Positions 8,369-59,641 of a stretch of 64,000 bases of DNA are shown in pieces. The translations under genes were made by a program, and so were the position numbers. Source of the stretch: Escherichia phage vB_EcoS_VAH1; sequence record MK373792.1; one strand, given 5' to 3'. The notes beneath the pieces are model-generated. The model had not been told where the DNA came from, ran no database searches, and saw only the letters and a program-made list of their open reading frames with translations. The stretch's first letter is position 1, and every line of letters starts with the position of its first letter.

Positions 8369-8653
8369 TTACTCCTTTTTTTGTATTAAATTATCAACCC
8401 AGGTAGTTAATACTCTAGTTTTAAACTCCTCGGGAGTCTCTCCTTCCTTAAGGTCTACCTCATTAAGGTAGGTAGTAAGCCTTGTTTCTATCTCTATTTC
8501 AGCAGGAGAATTAAAACAAAAATTGACTGCTATTCCAGAATATATTACTCCGGTATCTCCTTTGACGAAAGCATTAACTAATGCTCTCCAACGAAGGGCA
8601 TCAATACGCATTGCTCGTAATTCTTCTTGTACTTCTTTCATTCTATCATTCAT
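8369..8653 (-). CDS. hypothetical protein
   Basis: 94-aa ORF. Confidence 0.4.
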   Translation of the reverse strand: MNDRMKEVQEELRAMRIDALRWRALVNAFVKGDTGVIYSGIAVNFCFNSPAEIEIETRLTTYLNEVDLKEGETPEEFKTRVLTTWVDNLIQKKE

Positions 8654-9480
8654 TAAAGAATCCTCTGTACACCACAGCTATCTTCTCGAAGCGTGGTAAA
8701 TGTTGTGATTTTCCCAGTTTCATCATTAACTTGCGCAACCGTCAACTGCCCGTTGAAAACACCGCCAGTATCAAGATAAACACGGTTCTGGTATAAAATC
8801 GGGTAAGGTACTCCAGTATGCCCGTGAAACACGAAATCTACCCCTTTAACTTCTGGCACTTCTACCATGTATTTCTCTTTAAACCCTGCATAACGCTGGA
8901 AATATGAGTGTTCTTCACCATTTTTAGATAAGTGAAAACCTATTTCTTGGATTACATCTCGATCCCATAAGTATGGTTCAACATGGTATCCAGGATGGTC
9001 ATGTGGGTCTTCCTTAGATGCTTCTACTTGTGCAATAAGGTTATCCCATACTGGGGTTTCTACTTCGTTACCACATTCTTTGTACGTAAAAGGTACACCA
9101 CCATGAACAACACCATACTTTTTACCACGATGCAATACAGTCAGAAATACTGGCATTTTTTCAGCCATGTCTTCAGCAATATTTTTAATGGTATCTGCAT
9201 CTAGTTCATTCATAGCCCACATACCACCATTATACATCCAGTTAGCCCAATCTCCCACAATCATAAATTGGTCATGATTACCTCGGACACTGATAAAGCG
9301 TGGATTATACAGGAATTTGGCTAAAACTTGTAGGTTCTGCGTGCCTCGATCAATTAAATCTCCCACGCATACAACACAATCTTTCTTGCCGTTATAGCCA
9401 GCTAATTGTAGTGCATCTTCTAGTAAATCGTTACATCCATGAATATCACCAACGAAAAACAAGTTGGCGTCATCCGGCAC
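8653..9480 (-). CDS. serine/threonine protein phosphatase (PPP family, lambda-PPase-like)
   Basis: GDIHG, GDLIDRG, RGNHD, GH motifs; GTG start. Confidence 0.8.
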   Translation of the reverse strand: MPDDANLFFVGDIHGCNDLLEDALQLAGYNGKKDCVVCVGDLIDRGTQNLQVLAKFLYNPRFISVRGNHDQFMIVGDWANWMYNGGMWAMNELDADTIKNIAEDMAEKMPVFLTVLHRGKKYGVVHGGVPFTYKECGNEVETPVWDNLIAQVEASKEDPHDHPGYHVEPYLWDRDVIQEIGFHLSKNGEEHSYFQRYAGFKEKYMVEVPEVKGVDFVFHGHTGVPYPILYQNRVYLDTGGVFNGQLTVAQVNDETGKITTFTTLREDSCGVQRIL

Positions 9481-9519
9481 TACTAGAGTTTTATGTACAT
9501 TAAATTCTTTTTTTCATAA

Positions 9520-11599: not shown

Positions 11600-11676
11600 G
11601 GCTTTCTCCTATCTTCAAAAATTATTAAAGCCCCCTTTGCCTAAAAAGGCGGGAATATTCCCGCCTAAGTTATTAA

Positions 11677-12090
11677 TTAAACTAGTTCGACATGACCGCC
11701 ATCATAGGTACCACGTTTTATTTCATCGTGATAGTCTCCCGAAGCATTCCAATCAGCACCAAAACGAAGTTTAATGCCTAGCTCTTTACCAGCTTGTTCA
11801 AAAGCCTTTTTAACTGCCCAAAATGCTTCTAAGTCATTCCAGTCAATTTTGCCATTAATATATGGAGCAAAATCGATAGCATCCCCAGTAATATGTTTGC
11901 TTTTACTAGGATCTTTTAGAAATGAAGTACCATTAGCAATGTTCTGGGCACTTTGTGCTACTGTACGAATACCTTGCACGATTGTGAAATCGTACGGAGA
12001 TAATTCTAAAGCCCTACGAGCTACTTTTTGTAGCTCGGGCTTAACGGTAGCTAATTGTTTTTCGCTATTTTTACCAAATTTAAAACTCAT
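11677..12090 (-). CDS. lys: endolysin, zinc L-alanyl-D-glutamate peptidase (M15 family)
   Basis: 137 aa; HITGDAIDF and DGGHVE zinc-ligand motifs as in T5-type endolysin. Confidence 0.8.
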   Translation of the reverse strand: MSFKFGKNSEKQLATVKPELQKVARRALELSPYDFTIVQGIRTVAQSAQNIANGTSFLKDPSKSKHITGDAIDFAPYINGKIDWNDLEAFWAVKKAFEQAGKELGIKLRFGADWNASGDYHDEIKRGTYDGGHVELV

Positions 12091-12392
12091 ATTGACCTAC
12101 CTAAAGATCTCTGTTGTGGGGAACAGAGCTTTGCTAAATATTCCTTGAACTGTTCAGAATCGGCTGTATCTACCGGATTATCTTTCCAAGCAATACCAAT
12201 GTACCCAGCATAGATATTTTTTAGATTGAAGTATGGACAAGTGTATATGTAATTAAAAGTAACGTTTTTAAACGCAGGTATATTTAACCCCATATATTTA
12301 TTTACTCTTACACTTAAATCCGATGCGTAGTTAAAGCCCTCTAAATGACGTCTGTATAATTCAGACGTTTTATTTACCGCTTTATCGGCCAA
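12087..12392 (-). CDS. hypothetical protein
   Basis: 101-aa ORF overlapping lys start. Confidence 0.4.
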   Translation of the reverse strand: MADKAVNKTSELYRRHLEGFNYASDLSVRVNKYMGLNIPAFKNVTFNYIYTCPYFNLKNIYAGYIGIAWKDNPVDTADSEQFKEYLAKLCSPQQRSLGRSI

Positions 12393-12472
12393 GTCAGCCC
12401 TATCTAATTGCGCATTACTTTCCCATGCAATAATATTGGAATAATCATTGATAGCATCTGGTTTATACTTGA

Positions 12473-12796
12473 CTACAAAACAGCATCTGCACCCGTCTGA
12501 GAGAAGAGAACCATGCTCTTTTCCCTCGCCACATTAGGGAAGTTATCTATCCTCTGGGTTTGTAAATCCTGTAAAACTGCAGACGTGGAAAAAGTCTTTA
12601 AGAATGACATCACTTCACTAGTATTACTAACAAATAAGAAAATAATGACAGCAACTAAGATAGTTAGCAGACGTTTAAGAAGCGATGCTGGGTCTTTCGC
12701 TTCTTGGAGCAGTACTGTTAATAATTGTAAGAACTTTTCCAATTTGTAACCTCCTCTAACCAGTACCATTATACTAATTTTGGAGGAAAATTTCAA
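12473..12796 (-). CDS. membrane protein (holin candidate)
   Basis: Single TM LLTILVAVIIFLFV, upstream of endolysin. Confidence 0.35.
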   Translation of the reverse strand: MKFSSKISIMVLVRGGYKLEKFLQLLTVLLQEAKDPASLLKRLLTILVAVIIFLFVSNTSEVMSFLKTFSTSAVLQDLQTQRIDNFPNVAREKSMVLFSQTGADAVL

Positions 12797-12898: not shown

Positions 12899-13497
12899 TT
12901 ACTCTTCGTTGTGCTCCTCGGATTGAGGTAACTGCGTTTTATTATATTGCTCAGATCGATATTTTGCCAAGATTTCAATACGTTTATGGATTTCCTTGCT
13001 ATCTAGATAGATATTTTTGTTGTCTTTTACCATCTCGTCGATTTCATCTATTGAGAAGAACGGATAGTAGACATCTAGCATCATATCTTCTACGAACTTG
13101 TTGTAAGATTCATAGGCTTTCTTGATTTCTTGACCTTTCTCACAGAACCCACCAGAGAACGTATGTCCCATTAGCGTAGCATGTGGATGTACTACCCATC
13201 CATGACAAGATAGGAAAATTGTGCAGTAAGCAGAAGCACTAGGACCAATCAGGTGTCCTATAACTGTTCCACGGCAATTAGCAATTAAGTTAGATAACTG
13301 TGCAGCGGTATCAACATAGCCACCAGGGCCATTAATCATCAGATTAATTTCGTCGTCCTCATTTGCCTGCATAAGTACCATTGATAAATCACGGTATTCA
13401 TCCGGCGGACCAAGTTCTTCATCAAAGAAAAAGGTATACTCGTTAGATTGGCGAATGGAGTGAAACAGGTTAGTCTTTTCTTTTTTTTATTAGTCAT
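12899..13497 (-). CDS. ClpP-like serine peptidase (S14), reading frame interrupted at an A8 run
   Basis: INGPGGYVD, GPSASAYC, HPHATLMGHTFSGG resemble ClpP; ATG with AAGGA RBS at 13495-13497 is in a different frame from the domain (from 13486 down). Confidence 0.6.
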
Positions 13498-13509: not shown

Positions 13510-14261
13510 TTATCCAACTAGTGGTTCTAGCTCTAAGTCACAGAAGTTATACACTTCTAGTTTAAGGTTATTGATACCATCGAATTTATTAACTAATTCG
13601 TGAGTAATATATTTTGCAGGAATACCACTTTCAGATGGATGATCTGATTTAATAGTGAACTTCTGCTCAGCGGGCACTACATTTACTAGTAAAGAATCCA
13701 TATCTAAATGGTTCGTTTCTCTGAGTAACTCTCCTTCATTGGGGAATCTCACATCTGTTATTACGGCGACATCTGGGTCGTCTTTAGCGATGGATTGCTC
13801 CAGAATTATGAGCCAAATGCGTTCATGTACCAGCTGCCTTCCTAGCTCTGTTCCTACGAGCTGTAACATTTTTCTCGGAGAAATAAATAAACTATAGAGT
13901 CCGTCTTCTTTATTCTCTGAGATAAGTTGTTGAGGATTAAGATATTTTTCCTCAAAAATCGGCCAAACGTACGAGAAGTCTTCAAACTTATCGATACCGT
14001 ATTTAAACCATACGTCTCTAGCTCGCTCCAATTGAGATTGTGTGACCGTAAACCATTGGTCAATCTCTTTCCCCTGCGCTCTCCTAGAAACTCTGGAGTT
14101 ACACCGAGGATTACGGATGCAAGTTCATAAACGGGCTTAGCAAAACTGTAACGACGGGGTAAACGCGTTGGATACGTGTCATTACACCAATCGATAATTA
14201 ATTTTGCAACAGTGTCTTTTCCAGAACCAGCCTCACCATGCAGACCTACTAATACTGACAT
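13510..14261 (-). CDS. deoxynucleoside monophosphate kinase, split into two overlapping frames
   Basis: N-part (track 13854..14261) has Walker A GEAGSGKDT; C-part (track 13510..14031) has ITDVRFPNE and SDHPSESGIP as in T4 gp1. Confidence 0.6.
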
Positions 14262-14614
14262 TAATCTTTCCTATTGTTAATGGGTGGATAGTAAACTAAG
14301 CAACGTTTTTCTTGTAAATCTTGGCGATAGAAGCAAACCATACTAGTCAGTCGTGAGATATATGAATATTCTGCCTCGCGGCATTTTGCTAACATATTCC
14401 AATCTTTATATGGTACAACAACTACTACGCCATCTTCGCCATTTGTAGCTAATTTCTTTTCGAATTTGAAATCAAAGCTACAAGGCTGAAGTCCTTTAGG
14501 CCAATCCACATGGGCTGTTGGTAGCTCATGTGTAGGTTCTGGCTTTATTTCTTGTGCACAGCCTGTGATTGTGATTGTGGCTGCGAGCAGTATTCCAAGT
14601 TTTATTTTGTGCAT
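14261..14614 (-). CDS. lipoprotein (lipobox ITGC), Pro-rich after the Cys
   Basis: MHKIKLGILLAATITITGC signal; possible o-spanin or exclusion lipoprotein. Confidence 0.55.
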   Translation of the reverse strand: MHKIKLGILLAATITITGCAQEIKPEPTHELPTAHVDWPKGLQPCSFDFKFEKKLATNGEDGVVVVVPYKDWNMLAKCREAEYSYISRLTSMVCFYRQDLQEKRCLVYYPPINNRKD

Positions 14615-14689
14615 CTACGCACCTCATAATGTGTTTCTATGTATTGTTCCACTTCTACTGGAGAAACATTGAAAAACTCTGTACTTCCA

Positions 14690-15301
14690 CTAAAACCCCA
14701 CATAACTGCATCTTTTATTTTTATAGATACTATGTAGGTCAGCTTCGATCTTAGCTGTTTCTTCCTTAGAACCCTTGCCACAAATATAGTAAGATGATAC
14801 TCTCAGGTCTTTAAAACCACTACAAGACTTAACTTCTAGAAGTCTTTTCTGCACATTCTTACTTATACCTATTTTTATGCCCTTATCGGAAACAAATATG
14901 TATAAAAATCCTTGTGTATCCCAAGCTGTTTTGGCACAATTTGGGCACCCACTATGGTGTAAAACGTGGTTAGTGGTTGTTTCCCACTGATGGGAACATG
15001 TATTACATAAAAACTTTAGCTTAGAAGTAGAATTAGTATATTCACTTAGTAATACGATTTTTCTAGGACTGAGGAGTGAGTTAATCCTGTCTTTGGTTAA
15101 CTTTTCATTGCCTGCACATTTTGGGCATCCTCTACCTTTATTTCTGACATTTGTAGGGGCTGTTAACCATGTATTAGAGCATATAAGACACTTAAATTGT
15201 GTCTTTGTCTTATTATGTTCATATTCCCCAACTAATCTTACTGTCCTACCTTGAGCTTCTAAGTCTTTATTAAAGATTTCTTTATTTATTTTTACGCTCA
15301 T
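14690..15301 (-). CDS. zinc-ribbon repeat + T5orf172 (GIY-YIG-like) protein
   Basis: Two CxxC...GCPxC ribbons then YIFVSDKGIKIGIS; same architecture as 46060..46731. Confidence 0.6.
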   Translation of the reverse strand: MSVKINKEIFNKDLEAQGRTVRLVGEYEHNKTKTQFKCLICSNTWLTAPTNVRNKGRGCPKCAGNEKLTKDRINSLLSPRKIVLLSEYTNSTSKLKFLCNTCSHQWETTTNHVLHHSGCPNCAKTAWDTQGFLYIFVSDKGIKIGISKNVQKRLLEVKSCSGFKDLRVSSYYICGKGSKEETAKIEADLHSIYKNKRCSYVGF

Positions 15302-15707
15302 CCCTACAGTACTCCAAGCTACCAGAAAGACATGCTAATCTTTCCTCGAACTCCTTACTCTGCTTTTTAGCAATTAATGTAACCAATCCAGGCTTTGCAG
15401 CTATAATATCTTGACGACTAAGTGCTTTATCAAGCTGGGAGATCTTCTTATCAAGATCTTGTTGAGAAATATTATGGAAAGTGAAATATTGATTCATACG
15501 TGTTTCACGTTGTTCACTTTCAACTTTAATCTTGTTTAAGGAGGTTTCTAGAGTAGAGATCTTATTAGTTGCTGCCGCGAGATCCCCTGCTAAAGTTTCC
15601 ACCTTATTTACTAGGTGATAAGCACCGAATCCGATGCCTATCGCCAAACCAGCTCCCAGGATATACCATTTACCTTGCCATAGAGAACTAATAAAGTTTT
15701 TTATCAT
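15282..15707 (-). CDS. N-terminal TM + coiled-coil protein (i-spanin-like)
   Basis: TM WYILGAGLAIGIGFGAY then heptad-rich region. Confidence 0.4.
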   Translation of the reverse strand: MIKNFISSLWQGKWYILGAGLAIGIGFGAYHLVNKVETLAGDLAAATNKISTLETSLNKIKVESEQRETRMNQYFTFHNISQQDLDKKISQLDKALSRQDIIAAKPGLVTLIAKKQSKEFEERLACLSGSLEYCRDERKNK

Positions 15708-30367: not shown

Positions 30368-31360
30368 GTGTCAAAAATGACAGAAGAAGTAGCTAAGAGT
30401 CCTGAGACCGTCGCTAGCGTTGCAGCAGAACTGCACCGTCACGAGGAATCAGATAAGAAAAAGTGGGAGAAGGTCAGAGCCTACGAAGAAAAACATCGTG
30501 AACACGATGATGAAGAAGATGACGATGAGCATTGTCATAAATATGGAAAACATAAAATGCAAGAACCAGTAAACGTATTTACTAGTGGCTTCCCTGGCCT
30601 ACTTGGTGGTTACCCAGCAAACGCAAGTGCTTTCGGTGGCGAAGGTATGGGACTATTCGGAGCTATCCTAATCGGTGCTCTATTAACAGGCGGGTTCGGT
30701 GGTTTCGGTGGATTCGGTGGACGTGGTGTAGTTGGTGATGGTACCGCAGTTGATGCAGTACTTCAGAACCAAGATACCGCTAGTATTCTAGCAGCTATTA
30801 ACACTACTCGTACAGAAGCTAACCAGGGTACTGGAGCTGTTTTAAGCGCAGTTAACAATGGTTTTAGCCAGACATCCCAAAACCAGAGCCGTGATACTCA
30901 GTCTGTACTAACTACGATCTATGGTACAGGTGCTAATCTGTCTAATCAGATCTGCCAGGAAACTCGCAACGTTATTCAGGGTCAGTTCGATCTTTCTCGC
31001 CAGATTGATCAATCTTTCGCAGCTAACCAGATAGCTCGTGCACAAGATAAGTTTGATTCTGCACAGATCGCTTTCCAGCAGACTTTACAAACTAATAACC
31101 AGTTTGCCGCTGTTCAGGCTCAGATGTGTGCTAACCAGAACTCTCTGGAACGTCAGATCGCTGAATGTTGCTGTGAACTTCAGACTGCGATCGCTGGTGT
31201 AACTACTGCGCGTATTCAGGATGAGTTAGATGCATGTCGCCTACGTGAAGCAATCGCTGCGGGTAACGGTGCTAACGGTCAGGTAATTAATCAAATCGCT
31301 GTAAGTCTTGGTGCTATCACTCAGACTCTGGCTGGTCTGCAGGCTAAACTGCCGGCTTAA
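30368..31360 (+). CDS. acidic/His-rich N-domain + glycine-zipper TM segment + Gln/Asn/Ala-rich helical C-domain protein; function unknown
   Basis: DDEEDDDEH; GLFGAILIGALLTGGFGGFGGFGG; Q/N/T-rich tail with CCC cluster; codon usage unlike neighbours. Confidence 0.55.
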   Translation: MSKMTEEVAKSPETVASVAAELHRHEESDKKKWEKVRAYEEKHREHDDEEDDDEHCHKYGKHKMQEPVNVFTSGFPGLLGGYPANASAFGGEGMGLFGAILIGALLTGGFGGFGGFGGRGVVGDGTAVDAVLQNQDTASILAAINTTRTEANQGTGAVLSAVNNGFSQTSQNQSRDTQSVLTTIYGTGANLSNQICQETRNVIQGQFDLSRQIDQSFAANQIARAQDKFDSAQIAFQQTLQTNNQFAAVQAQMCANQNSLERQIAECCCELQTAIAGVTTARIQDELDACRLREAIAAGNGANGQVINQIAVSLGAITQTLAGLQAKLPA

Positions 31361-58477: not shown

Positions 58478-59303
58478 ATGACCAATGTAAAAGAATTTAT
58501 TAAACGCTGTCAAGAAGCATATTATCAAGGTATGTCTTTAATCTCTGATGAGGAATATGATTGCCTAGTAAAACGCTTCCCGTTAGAGGAAGAGATCGGG
58601 CCTAAGGGTGATATTCCACATCTGTATCGTATGTATTCTTTACAGAAAGTTTACTATAACCGTGGAGATAAACCACCATTCAATCCTTTAGGTCAGGTGG
58701 AAACCGATAAGTTAGATGGTTGTGCAATTTCTCTGCTATATATTTAATGGCGAATTTGTTCAAGCACTAACTCGTGGTAATGGTATTCTGGGGAATGATG
58801 TCACAAGCAACGTAAGATTGCTGAACATCCCTAAAAAGATTTCCCAAAAAGTACCTACTCAAATCACTGGTGAAGTTCTAATTACAAAAGAAGTAGAAAA
58901 TAAACGTAACTTTGCCTCTGGTGCTATTAACCTCAAAGATAGTGATGCTTTTGTACAACGTATCGGGGAAGGTGGTTTAATCTTCGTTGCATACGGTATC
59001 CAGTGTTCTGCTGAATCTGTAGGTATTACAGAAGCGTATTTAAAAGATATGCTTTGGCTAGAGAATGAGAACTTCTTAACAGTTGTTATGTGCGTTCCTC
59101 CTTTAAAATGGATTCCGACGGACGGTAAAGTTGTTCGTATTAATGACAACAACAAATTCTTCCGGGAAGGCTGGACTAATAAATTCCCTCGTGGGGCATT
59201 CGCTATTAAAGAGGATGAAGAAGGCGAGATTACAACTCTTACTAAAGTTGAATGGCAGGTAGGGGCTTCTGGTAAAGTTCCAGTTGGTTATTTCGAACCG
59301 TAA
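58478..59303 (+). CDS. lig: NAD-dependent DNA ligase, adenylation part, internally frameshifted (track ORFs 58478..58747 and 58716..59303)
   Basis: KLDG adenylation lysine in first ORF; TRGNGILGNDVTSN and onward in second ORF; junction at CTATATATTTAATGG. Confidence 0.75.
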
Positions 59304-59309
59304 TAATTG

Positions 59310-59453
59310 ATTGATGCCACAATTGTTAAAGCGACTCTTAATAACGTTGATTATATTAACTCTCTCGATCTAGAGATCGGTTGCCAGATTCGAGTGATTC
59401 GTGCTGGTGGTGTAATCCCGTGCATAGTAGAGCGAGTATACGATTATACATAA
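59310..59453 (+). pseudogene. ligase OB-fold remnant, in frame after tandem TAA TAA stops
   Basis: [44 protein letters not shown] matches the LigA OB domain (ATLHN...RAGDVIP) but has no conventional start. Confidence 0.5.
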
Positions 59454-59641
59454 CCCTTTGCTACCCATCTACCGTATCGGAATTATGGTTATTGACATTT
59501 CGCCGCTTAGGTATATATACTATTATCATTCAGTTGAGGGATAGAAAGTTATGGCGAGGGTAAGCAAAGTTAGTTAAAATTGTAGTTGCTAAATGCTTAA
59601 ATACTTGCTATAATATTTATATAAATTGATAAGGAAGAAAT

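What the first reader, a model, noticed from the sequence alone, without database searches (positions are those of the whole stretch)
13510..14261. dNMP kinase split into two overlapping ORFs
The Walker-A N-terminus (MSVLVGLHGEAGSGKDT...) and the conserved C-terminal half (…VITDVRFPNE…SDHPSESGIP…) are in different frames overlapping over ~180 nt; the likely junction is at AGGGGAAAGAG (~14060-14080), where both frames read a GK dipeptide. It lies next to the ClpP-like frameshift, so two adjacent genes are both frame-broken at homopolymers.
Basis: seen in the sequence. Interest (0 to 1): 0.5.

Follow-up and report, generated by a model that had tools for sequence, protein, structure and literature searches.

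The report
Sequencing-error frameshift in T5 dNMP kinase
The split is real in this sequence, but it is one missing base in a G/A run of an ordinary phage T5-type dNMP kinase gene and is almost certainly a sequencing or assembly error, not biology.

Summary
On the minus strand, 13854-14261 (135 aa, Walker A) and 13510-14031 (173 aa) overlap by 178 nt in different frames, and the junction is the tract GGGGAAA at 14068-14074.

The window is a T5-like phage (Tequintavirus), and this is its dnk gene. It is 752 nt here and 753 nt (250 aa) in T5 and its relatives.

Relatives carry GGGGGAAA or GGGGAAAA, both in frame; the window is one base short of either. Adding one base gives a protein 248/250 identical to T5 Dnk. 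All four codon differences from T5 downstream of the break are synonymous.

The short tract occurs in only one of 50,697 phage records. That record is a nanopore-only draft whose Illumina resequencing has the intact gene.

The window also carries single-base indels absent from every comparator that aligns there. They fall in the neighbouring clp, the holin, a phosphatase start and ligA (five or six indels in about 700 nt). That many broken core genes in a viable phage is implausible.

The best explanation is consensus error (about 0.86). The minor rival is a real, very recent deletion. It happens to create the slippery heptamer G_GGA_AAG, and a -1 slip there would remake wild-type Dnk at a low level.

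Interest is low.

The parts
13510..14261 (-). dnk, the T5-type deoxynucleoside monophosphate kinase gene. It is 752 nt here and 753 nt (250 aa) in relatives.
   Evidence: Searches give 97-98.7% nt identity to annotated dnk of T5, 8sent1748 and others. In one search a +1-base repair gives 250 aa, 248/250 identical to T5 Dnk. Pfam DNMK scores 42.4 bits and PHROG 139 scores 5e-51.
13854..14261 (-). Upstream ORF of 135 aa. Residues 1-65 are authentic Dnk with the P-loop GEAGSGKDT. Residues 66-135 are an out-of-frame tail.
   Evidence: The tail RLTNGLRSHNLNWSE... has no counterpart in T5 Dnk.
13510..14031 (-). Downstream ORF of 173 aa from a TTG that is an internal Leu codon of Dnk. The authentic Dnk frame continues upstream to the junction near 14066.
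   Evidence: tblastn: T5 Dnk residues 66-253 match window 14076-13513 in frame -2 at 99.5%. Pfam DNMK scores 33 bits on this ORF alone.
14068..14074 (-). The G4A3 tract (GGGGAAA) where one base is missing. Intact alleles elsewhere are G5A3 or G4A4.
14067..14073 (-). G_GGA_AAG, a canonical X_XXY_YYZ -1 slippery heptamer created in frame 0 by the missing base. It matters only if the deletion is real.
   Evidence: Read directly. Heptamer efficiency figures come from PMC4066793. There is no downstream structure.
14075..14081 (-). GA^GCGCA, the counterpart of the annotated T5 major single-strand nick (18.5% site). It ends immediately before the tract; the nick itself lies 5 nt upstream.
   Evidence: T5 annotation. 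Position mapped through the alignment.
12899..13497 (-). Neighbouring clp-like protease gene, also broken by one missing base at about 13483.
   Evidence: Repair gives a translation matching T5 at 198 of 200 positions, stop included.

Best explanation
This is the ordinary dnk gene of a T5-like phage. It encodes a 250-aa P-loop kinase that phosphorylates dNMPs to dNDPs for phage DNA synthesis.

The apparent split is a consensus or base-calling error. One base of the G/A tract (true sequence GGGGGAAA or GGGGAAAA) was dropped, leaving GGGGAAA. In the phage itself the gene is most likely a single continuous ORF.

Shown here: the identity of the gene, the single missing base, its absence from every relative, the many other private frame-breaking indels in the same window, and the lack of any decay downstream. 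Inferred: that the missing base is absent from the record rather than from the phage DNA, and that the error type is noisy long-read consensus.
For: 1. There is one indel in the gene, inside a homopolymer tract.

2. A specific 42-mer carrying G4A3 matches 1 of 50,697 phage records. The intact alleles match 47 records (G5A3) and 254 records (G4A4). IMG/VR gives 0 against 4 for G5A3.

3. The single other G4A3 record is MG969412, 'UNVERIFIED' GE_vB_N5. [quoted passage not shown] PMC8310288 lists GE_vB_N5 as the alternative name of GEC_vB_N5, sequenced on Illumina. MW006479, the GenBank record named GEC_vB_N5, has G5A3 and an intact annotated dNMP kinase. It shares the diagnostic GAGGTTGACC SNP with the draft.

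4. Of 60 records sampled evenly from 543 with a Dnk match, 58 show one uninterrupted piece, down to 35% identity.

5. The repaired gene gives 250 aa, 248/250 identical to T5. Downstream of the break, all four codons that differ from T5 are synonymous.

6. The window holds about 17 private 1-2 nt indels, each absent from every comparator that aligns at that site (2-4 of the 4). They include frame breaks in the phosphatase (9508), holin (12477), clp (13483), dnk and ligA (58745, 59089, 59108, 59312, 59447, plus 59301 seen only against T5).

7. Repaired clp matches T5 at 198 of 200 positions (stop included), and repaired holin looks identical to the ESCO40 holin by eye.

8. Several private indels are losses of one base between runs of another base, or alternating +1/-1 pairs. 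From my own knowledge this is typical of noisy long-read consensus.
Against: No reads are available, so the error is not directly demonstrated. The sequencing platform of the source record is unknown, and no nearly identical genome exists in the collections to serve as a control (best dnk-region match 98.7%). A real 1-nt deletion would look identical in a single consensus sequence. The deletion also happens to create a good -1 slippery heptamer, which would soften its cost if it were real.
Confidence: 0.86

Rival explanations
1. The deletion is real and very recent in this phage stock. The main product is then a 135-aa truncated P-loop fragment. A small fraction of ribosomes slip -1 on G_GGA_AAG and make a protein with the wild-type Dnk sequence (R-R-G-K-E-I-D...). 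Host nucleotide kinases cover the remaining demand.
For: Frame 0 reads CGC AGG GGA AAG AGA, so G_GGA_AAG is an in-frame X_XXY_YYZ heptamer. X_XXA_AAG heptamers are the most shift-prone class in E. coli (PMC4066793). A -1 slip there reproduces the wild-type residues exactly (derived from the sequence; repaired translation).
Against: Without stimulators such heptamers give about 0.3%, and at most about 3.7%. There is no downstream structure (z = +0.61). The upstream AGGAG lies only 6 nt away, whereas the dnaX site has about 10 nt (own knowledge). Holin, clp, ligA and a phosphatase would all have to be broken at the same time in a viable phage. There is no decay downstream. The same tract is a documented nanopore miscall.
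Confidence: 0.11
2. This is a conserved programmed -1 frameshift that makes two Dnk isoforms, as in dnaX or the tail-assembly chaperones.
For: Only the presence of a slippery heptamer at the junction.
Against: The arrangement is absent from relatives: 301 records carry intact alleles against one error-prone draft, and 58 of 60 sampled records have uninterrupted genes. There is no stimulatory structure. In G5A3 relatives the heptamer is not in frame.
Confidence: 0.01
3. The gene is genuinely split and works as a two-subunit kinase, with a P-loop fragment plus a substrate/lid fragment translated from the internal TTG.
For: ORF2 begins with a possible TTG start.
Against: That TTG is an internal Leu codon in all relatives. 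Residues 66-77 of Dnk would be lost. ORF1 would carry a 70-aa nonsense tail. No relative has this arrangement.
Confidence: 0.02

Closest known systems
Bacteriophage T5 dnk (T5.043, YP_006871; deoxynucleoside monophosphate kinase, 250 aa)
   Same: It occupies the same locus, between the o-spanin gene and clp. Nucleotide identity is 97.2%. After a one-base repair the protein is 248/250 identical. It has the same P-loop, and the annotated T5 nick consensus sits at the same place.
   Different: The window is one base short in the G/A tract, so the ORF is split as written. There are two substitutions (C33R, S35P).
MG969412 'UNVERIFIED' Salmonella phage GE_vB_N5 (MinION-only draft) versus its Illumina resequencing MW006479 (GEC_vB_N5)
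   Same: The draft has the same G4A3 tract and the same out-of-frame tail RLTNGLRSHNLNWSE. The Illumina version is intact.
   Different: That draft has several further indels inside dnk. The window has only this one in dnk, but many elsewhere.
Pfam DNMK (PF21448) / PHROG 139 dNMP kinases
   Same: The repaired protein passes the Pfam gathering score (42.4 against 27.1 bits). It matches PHROG 139 over residues 1-246.
   Different: The Pfam match covers only residues 127-218. phmmer found no solved structure at E<=1 other than chance RuBisCO hits, so a close relationship to T4 gp1 was not shown here.
Bacterial -1 frameshift sites of the X_XXA_AAG type (dnaX, IS3/IS911 family)
   Same: A G_GGA_AAG heptamer sits in frame 0 at the junction, and the required shift is -1.
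   Different: There is no downstream stem-loop or pseudoknot, and the arrangement is not conserved in relatives. It is a by-product of the missing base.

Membership tests
T5-type dNMP kinase (Dnk; Pfam DNMK PF21448 / PHROG 139) | N-terminal P-loop GxxGxGK[ST] | tested here: met
   GEAGSGKDT at residues 9-17 of ORF1.
T5-type dNMP kinase (Dnk; Pfam DNMK PF21448 / PHROG 139) | Profile match above the curated threshold | tested here: met
   Repaired protein: DNMK 42.4 bits against a cut-off of 27.1, and PHROG 139 at 5.3e-51 over residues 1-246. ORF2 alone scores 33 bits.
T5-type dNMP kinase (Dnk; Pfam DNMK PF21448 / PHROG 139) | Full-length collinearity with characterised T5 Dnk and the same genomic position | tested here: met
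   248/250 identical after adding one base. The gene is flanked by the o-spanin gene and clp, as in T5.
T5-type dNMP kinase (Dnk; Pfam DNMK PF21448 / PHROG 139) | Single uninterrupted ORF | tested here: not met
   As written the gene is 752 nt and is split at 14068-14074. I judge this a property of the record, not of the phage.
T5-type dNMP kinase (Dnk; Pfam DNMK PF21448 / PHROG 139) | dNMP-to-dNDP kinase activity | not testable with these tools
   It needs an enzyme assay. From my own knowledge, activity is published for T5 Dnk.
Programmed -1 ribosomal frameshift site | X_XXY_YYZ slippery heptamer in the upstream frame at the junction | tested here: met
   G_GGA_AAG at 14073-14067(-).
Programmed -1 ribosomal frameshift site | Stimulatory element (a downstream structure, or an upstream SD-like sequence at the right spacing) | tested here: not met
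   The 92 nt downstream fold at -14.6 kcal/mol, z = +0.61, and 149 of 200 shuffles fold at least as well. AGGAG lies 6 nt upstream, which by my own knowledge is not the dnaX-like spacing.
Programmed -1 ribosomal frameshift site | Conservation of the two-frame arrangement among relatives | tested here: not met
   One error-prone draft against 301 records with intact alleles. 58 of 60 sampled records are uninterrupted.
Homopolymer/consensus sequencing error | Indel within a run, private to this sequence | tested here: met
   All four comparator genomes disagree with the window.
Homopolymer/consensus sequencing error | Other private frame-breaking indels in conserved genes of the same contig | tested here: met
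   Phosphatase 9508, holin 12477, clp 13483, and five or six in ligA.
Homopolymer/consensus sequencing error | No mutational decay downstream of the break | tested here: met
   Against T5, downstream of codon 65, there are 0 nonsynonymous and 4 synonymous codon differences.
Homopolymer/consensus sequencing error | Read-level disagreement with the consensus | not testable with these tools
   No reads are available.

The most novel reading that the evidence does not exclude
The one-base deletion is real. This phage then keeps a working dNMP kinase only through spontaneous -1 ribosomal slippage on the newly created G_GGA_AAG heptamer, which regenerates the exact wild-type protein sequence. That would be a natural example of a 'self-rescuing' frameshift mutation.
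Probability: 0.04. Interest if true: 0.4.

Novelty: not a real feature. Interest (0 to 1): 0.07.

Why it matters
It matters mainly for quality control. The split dnk, together with the broken clp, holin, phosphatase and ligA, marks this window as an error-prone assembly. Other 'frameshift', 'pseudogene' or 'split gene' findings from the same window should therefore be discounted until the sequence is polished.

It also identifies the G/A tract beside the T5 18.5% nick as a site miscalled in at least two independent records.

If the deletion were real, it would be a small curiosity: a frameshift that creates its own slippery site. It would not be a new system.

Tried and rejected
- An exact look-up of the 135-aa ORF in public assemblies found nothing.
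- A homologue search with ORF1 returned only two proteins, both from the nanopore drafts GE_vB_N5 and GE_vB_N8. Intact Dnk proteins were not returned, so it gave no census.
- The 20-mer carrying G4A3 hit four metagenome contigs and one Cupriavidus genome. All are 20-22 nt chance matches with 50-65% GC and no further homology.
- A PDB sequence search gave only chance RuBisCO hits.
- I looked for a frameshift-stimulating RNA structure downstream and found none.
- Candidate breaks at about 1350 (a 2-nt difference against one comparator only) and about 4394 (intergenic terminator, where the window agrees with T5) were not counted.
- The indels at 11622, 22643, 44850, 56230 and 57699 are shared with at least one comparator and are ordinary polymorphism.
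- I considered whether the private indels cluster at T5 nick sites. Only the dnk one is adjacent to a nick, so no general link can be claimed.

Full report
**What is there.** On the minus strand, ORF 13854..14261 (135 aa, MSVLVGLHGEAGSGKDT...) and ORF 13510..14031 (173 aa...VITDVRFPNE...SDHPSESGIP...) overlap by 178 nt in different frames (sequence). Passing from the first frame to the second needs a -1 shift, which equals one missing base. The downstream ORF alone hits Pfam DNMK (33 bits).

**Where the window comes from.** A 1-kb query around the locus matches 444 phage records, nearly all T5-like (Demerecviridae, Tequintavirus), at up to 98.7% identity. The matched stretch is annotated dnk / dNMP kinase, flanked by an o-spanin gene and a Clp-like protease gene. 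In T5 and Salmonella phage 8sent1748 dnk is 753 nt (250 aa). Here the same span is 752 nt.

**The junction.**
- The three-way alignment shows exactly one indel in the gene: GCGCA-GGGGAAAGAG in the window against GCGCAGGGGGAAAGAG.
- Four comparator genomes (T5, 8sent1748, GEC_vB_N5, ESCO40) all disagree with the window at this point.
- ESCO40 carries a second intact allele, GGGGAAAA, reading AGG GGA AAA GAG.
- So relatives have either G5A3 or G4A4, both encoding R-G-K-E. The window's G4A3 is one base short of either, and the lost base may be a G or an A.

**Census of the tract.**

| Tract | Query | Phage records matched (of 50,697) |
|---|---|---|
| G4A3 (window) | 42-mer; every 28-nt seed word spans the tract | 1 |
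| G5A3 | 43-mer | 47 |
| G4A4 | 43-mer | 254 |

- In IMG/VR the G4A3 20-mer occurs 0 times and the G5A3 21-mer 4 times, all in T5-like contigs.
- Matches of the 20-mer in metagenome and bacterial genome collections are 20-22 nt chance hits in unrelated DNA with 50-65% GC.
- tblastn with the repaired protein finds 543 records. Of 60 sampled evenly down the ranking, 58 give one uninterrupted full-length piece, down to 35% identity. One is cut by a contig end, and one comes in two pieces.
- A continuous dnk ORF is therefore the rule across the family. A conserved programmed frameshift is excluded.

**The one other G4A3 record is informative.**
- It is MG969412, 'UNVERIFIED: Salmonella phage GE_vB_N5'. 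It is unannotated and has several further indels inside dnk.
- Its predicted product, and that of its sibling draft GE_vB_N8, run into the same wrong-frame tail RLTNGLRSHNLNWSE.
- The source paper says these genomes were sequenced only on a MinION R9.4 flow cell at 30-60x. [quoted passage not shown]
- A later paper lists GE_vB_N5 as the alternative name of GEC_vB_N5, sequenced on an Illumina MiniSeq (PMC8310288).
- MW006479, the GenBank record named GEC_vB_N5, shares the diagnostic neighbouring SNP (GAGGTTGACC) with the draft. It has G5A3 and an intact annotated dNMP kinase.
- This exact tract is therefore a documented long-read under-call.

**The rest of the window.** I compared the window with T5, 8sent1748, GEC_vB_N5 and ESCO40 at nucleotide and protein level. 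I counted 1-2 nt indels that differ from every comparator aligned at that site.

| Window position | Change | Location |
|---|---|---|
| 59, 146, 243 | 1 nt each | non-coding |
| 9508 | A7 for A6 | codon 3-4 of the Ser/Thr phosphatase; gives M-K-K-R-I-stop |
| 12477-12481 | A4 for A5 | holin |
| 13483 | G lost between A runs | clp, codon 6 |
| 14068-14074 | one base lost | dnk |
| 30373 | 1 nt | between RBS and ATG |
| 52331 | 1 nt | not mapped to a gene |
| 58745, 59089, 59108, 59301, 59312, 59447 | alternating +1/-1 | ligA; 59301 seen against T5 only; gene cut into at least three ORFs |
| 59516 | +2 nt | about 70 nt past the ligA stop |

- Indels that the window shares with at least one comparator lie almost entirely in intergenic or tRNA regions.
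- The private indels hit coding sequence roughly in proportion to its abundance. That is the pattern expected of errors that never met selection.
- A single-base repair restores each of the three adjacent genes. Dnk becomes 248/250 identical to T5. Clp matches T5 at 198 of 200 translated positions, stop included. The repaired holin looks identical to the ESCO40 holin by eye.
- Downstream of the dnk break, four codons differ from T5 and all four are synonymous. The second frame is still under purifying selection or has had no time to decay.
- A viable phage with holin, ligase A, dNMP kinase, Clp protease and a phosphatase all frameshifted at once is implausible.
- The loss of single bases between runs of another base, and the paired +1/-1 indels, look like noisy long-read consensus. 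This last point is my inference from general knowledge.

**Mechanism.** The repaired protein is a standard T5-type dNMP kinase. It has an N-terminal P-loop (GEAGSGKDT), Pfam DNMK at 42.4 bits against a 27.1 cut-off, and PHROG 139 'deoxynucleoside monophosphate kinase' at 5e-51 over residues 1-246. From established knowledge of T5, Dnk phosphorylates dNMPs to dNDPs to feed phage DNA replication. Nothing here suggests a departure from that. No solved structure is detectable by sequence, so the 'T4 gp1-type' label rests on the Pfam family only.

**The rival worth stating.** If the deletion were real, frame 0 would read CGC AGG GGA AAG AGA.
- This puts G_GGA_AAG, a canonical X_XXY_YYZ heptamer, exactly at the junction. 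A -1 slip there gives R-R-G-K-E-I-D..., the wild-type sequence.
- X_XXA_AAG motifs are the most shift-prone class in E. coli. Without stimulators they give about 0.3%, and at most about 3.7% (PMC4066793).
- The 92 nt downstream have no unusual structure (z = +0.61).
- At best this would be a leaky mutation. I give a real deletion about 0.11 in total and functional rescue by slippage about 0.04.

**Verdict.** The feature is most likely an artefact of the record (confidence 0.86). The gene itself is already known. Interest is low. The practical value is to flag the whole window as error-prone.

Noticed in passing
window 14075-14081 (-): The T5 major single-strand nick consensus GA^GCGCA (the 18.5% nick annotated in T5 records) is conserved and ends immediately before the miscalled G/A tract; the nick itself is 5 nt upstream. 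Reads of the nicked strand would end here, which might worsen consensus quality at this spot. Both records with G4A3 are T5-like phages. The other private indels are not next to annotated nicks.
   Followed up: partly
window 12087-12796 (-), break at 12477-12481: The holin gene (T5.041 homologue) is split by a private A5-to-A4 deletion. A one-base repair gives a protein that looks identical to the ESCO40 holin by eye.
   Followed up: yes
window 9508-9514 (gene 8653-9517, -): The Ser/Thr phosphatase (T5.035 homologue) has A7 instead of A6 straight after its ATG. This gives M-K-K-R-I-stop, and the long ORF then only starts at a downstream GTG.
   Followed up: partly
window 58478-59520 (+): The NAD-dependent DNA ligase subunit A gene carries five private alternating +1/-1 single-base indels (58745, 59089, 59108, 59312, 59447). 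A sixth (59301) was seen against T5 only, and a +2 indel follows at 59516. This is the most error-dense stretch seen.
   Followed up: partly
window 14602-15307; ORF 14690-15301 (-): About 700 nt are inserted between the o-spanin and i-spanin genes, which overlap in T5. The insert encodes a 203-aa protein with treble-clef zinc-finger (CapR, DUF4379) and T5orf172/MUG113 domains. It looks like a mobile, homing-endonuclease-like gene separating the spanin pair.
   Followed up: partly
dnk tract in relatives (e.g. L008 3535-3545): Two synonymous intact alleles circulate in T5-like phages: G4A4 (254 records) and G5A3 (47 records). T5 itself has the minority allele.
   Followed up: yes
window 59, 146, 243, 30373, 52331: Further private single-base indels lie outside the genes I mapped. 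The one at 30373 sits between the RBS AGGAGG and the ATG of the T5.077 homologue. They are consistent with the same error process.
   Followed up: no
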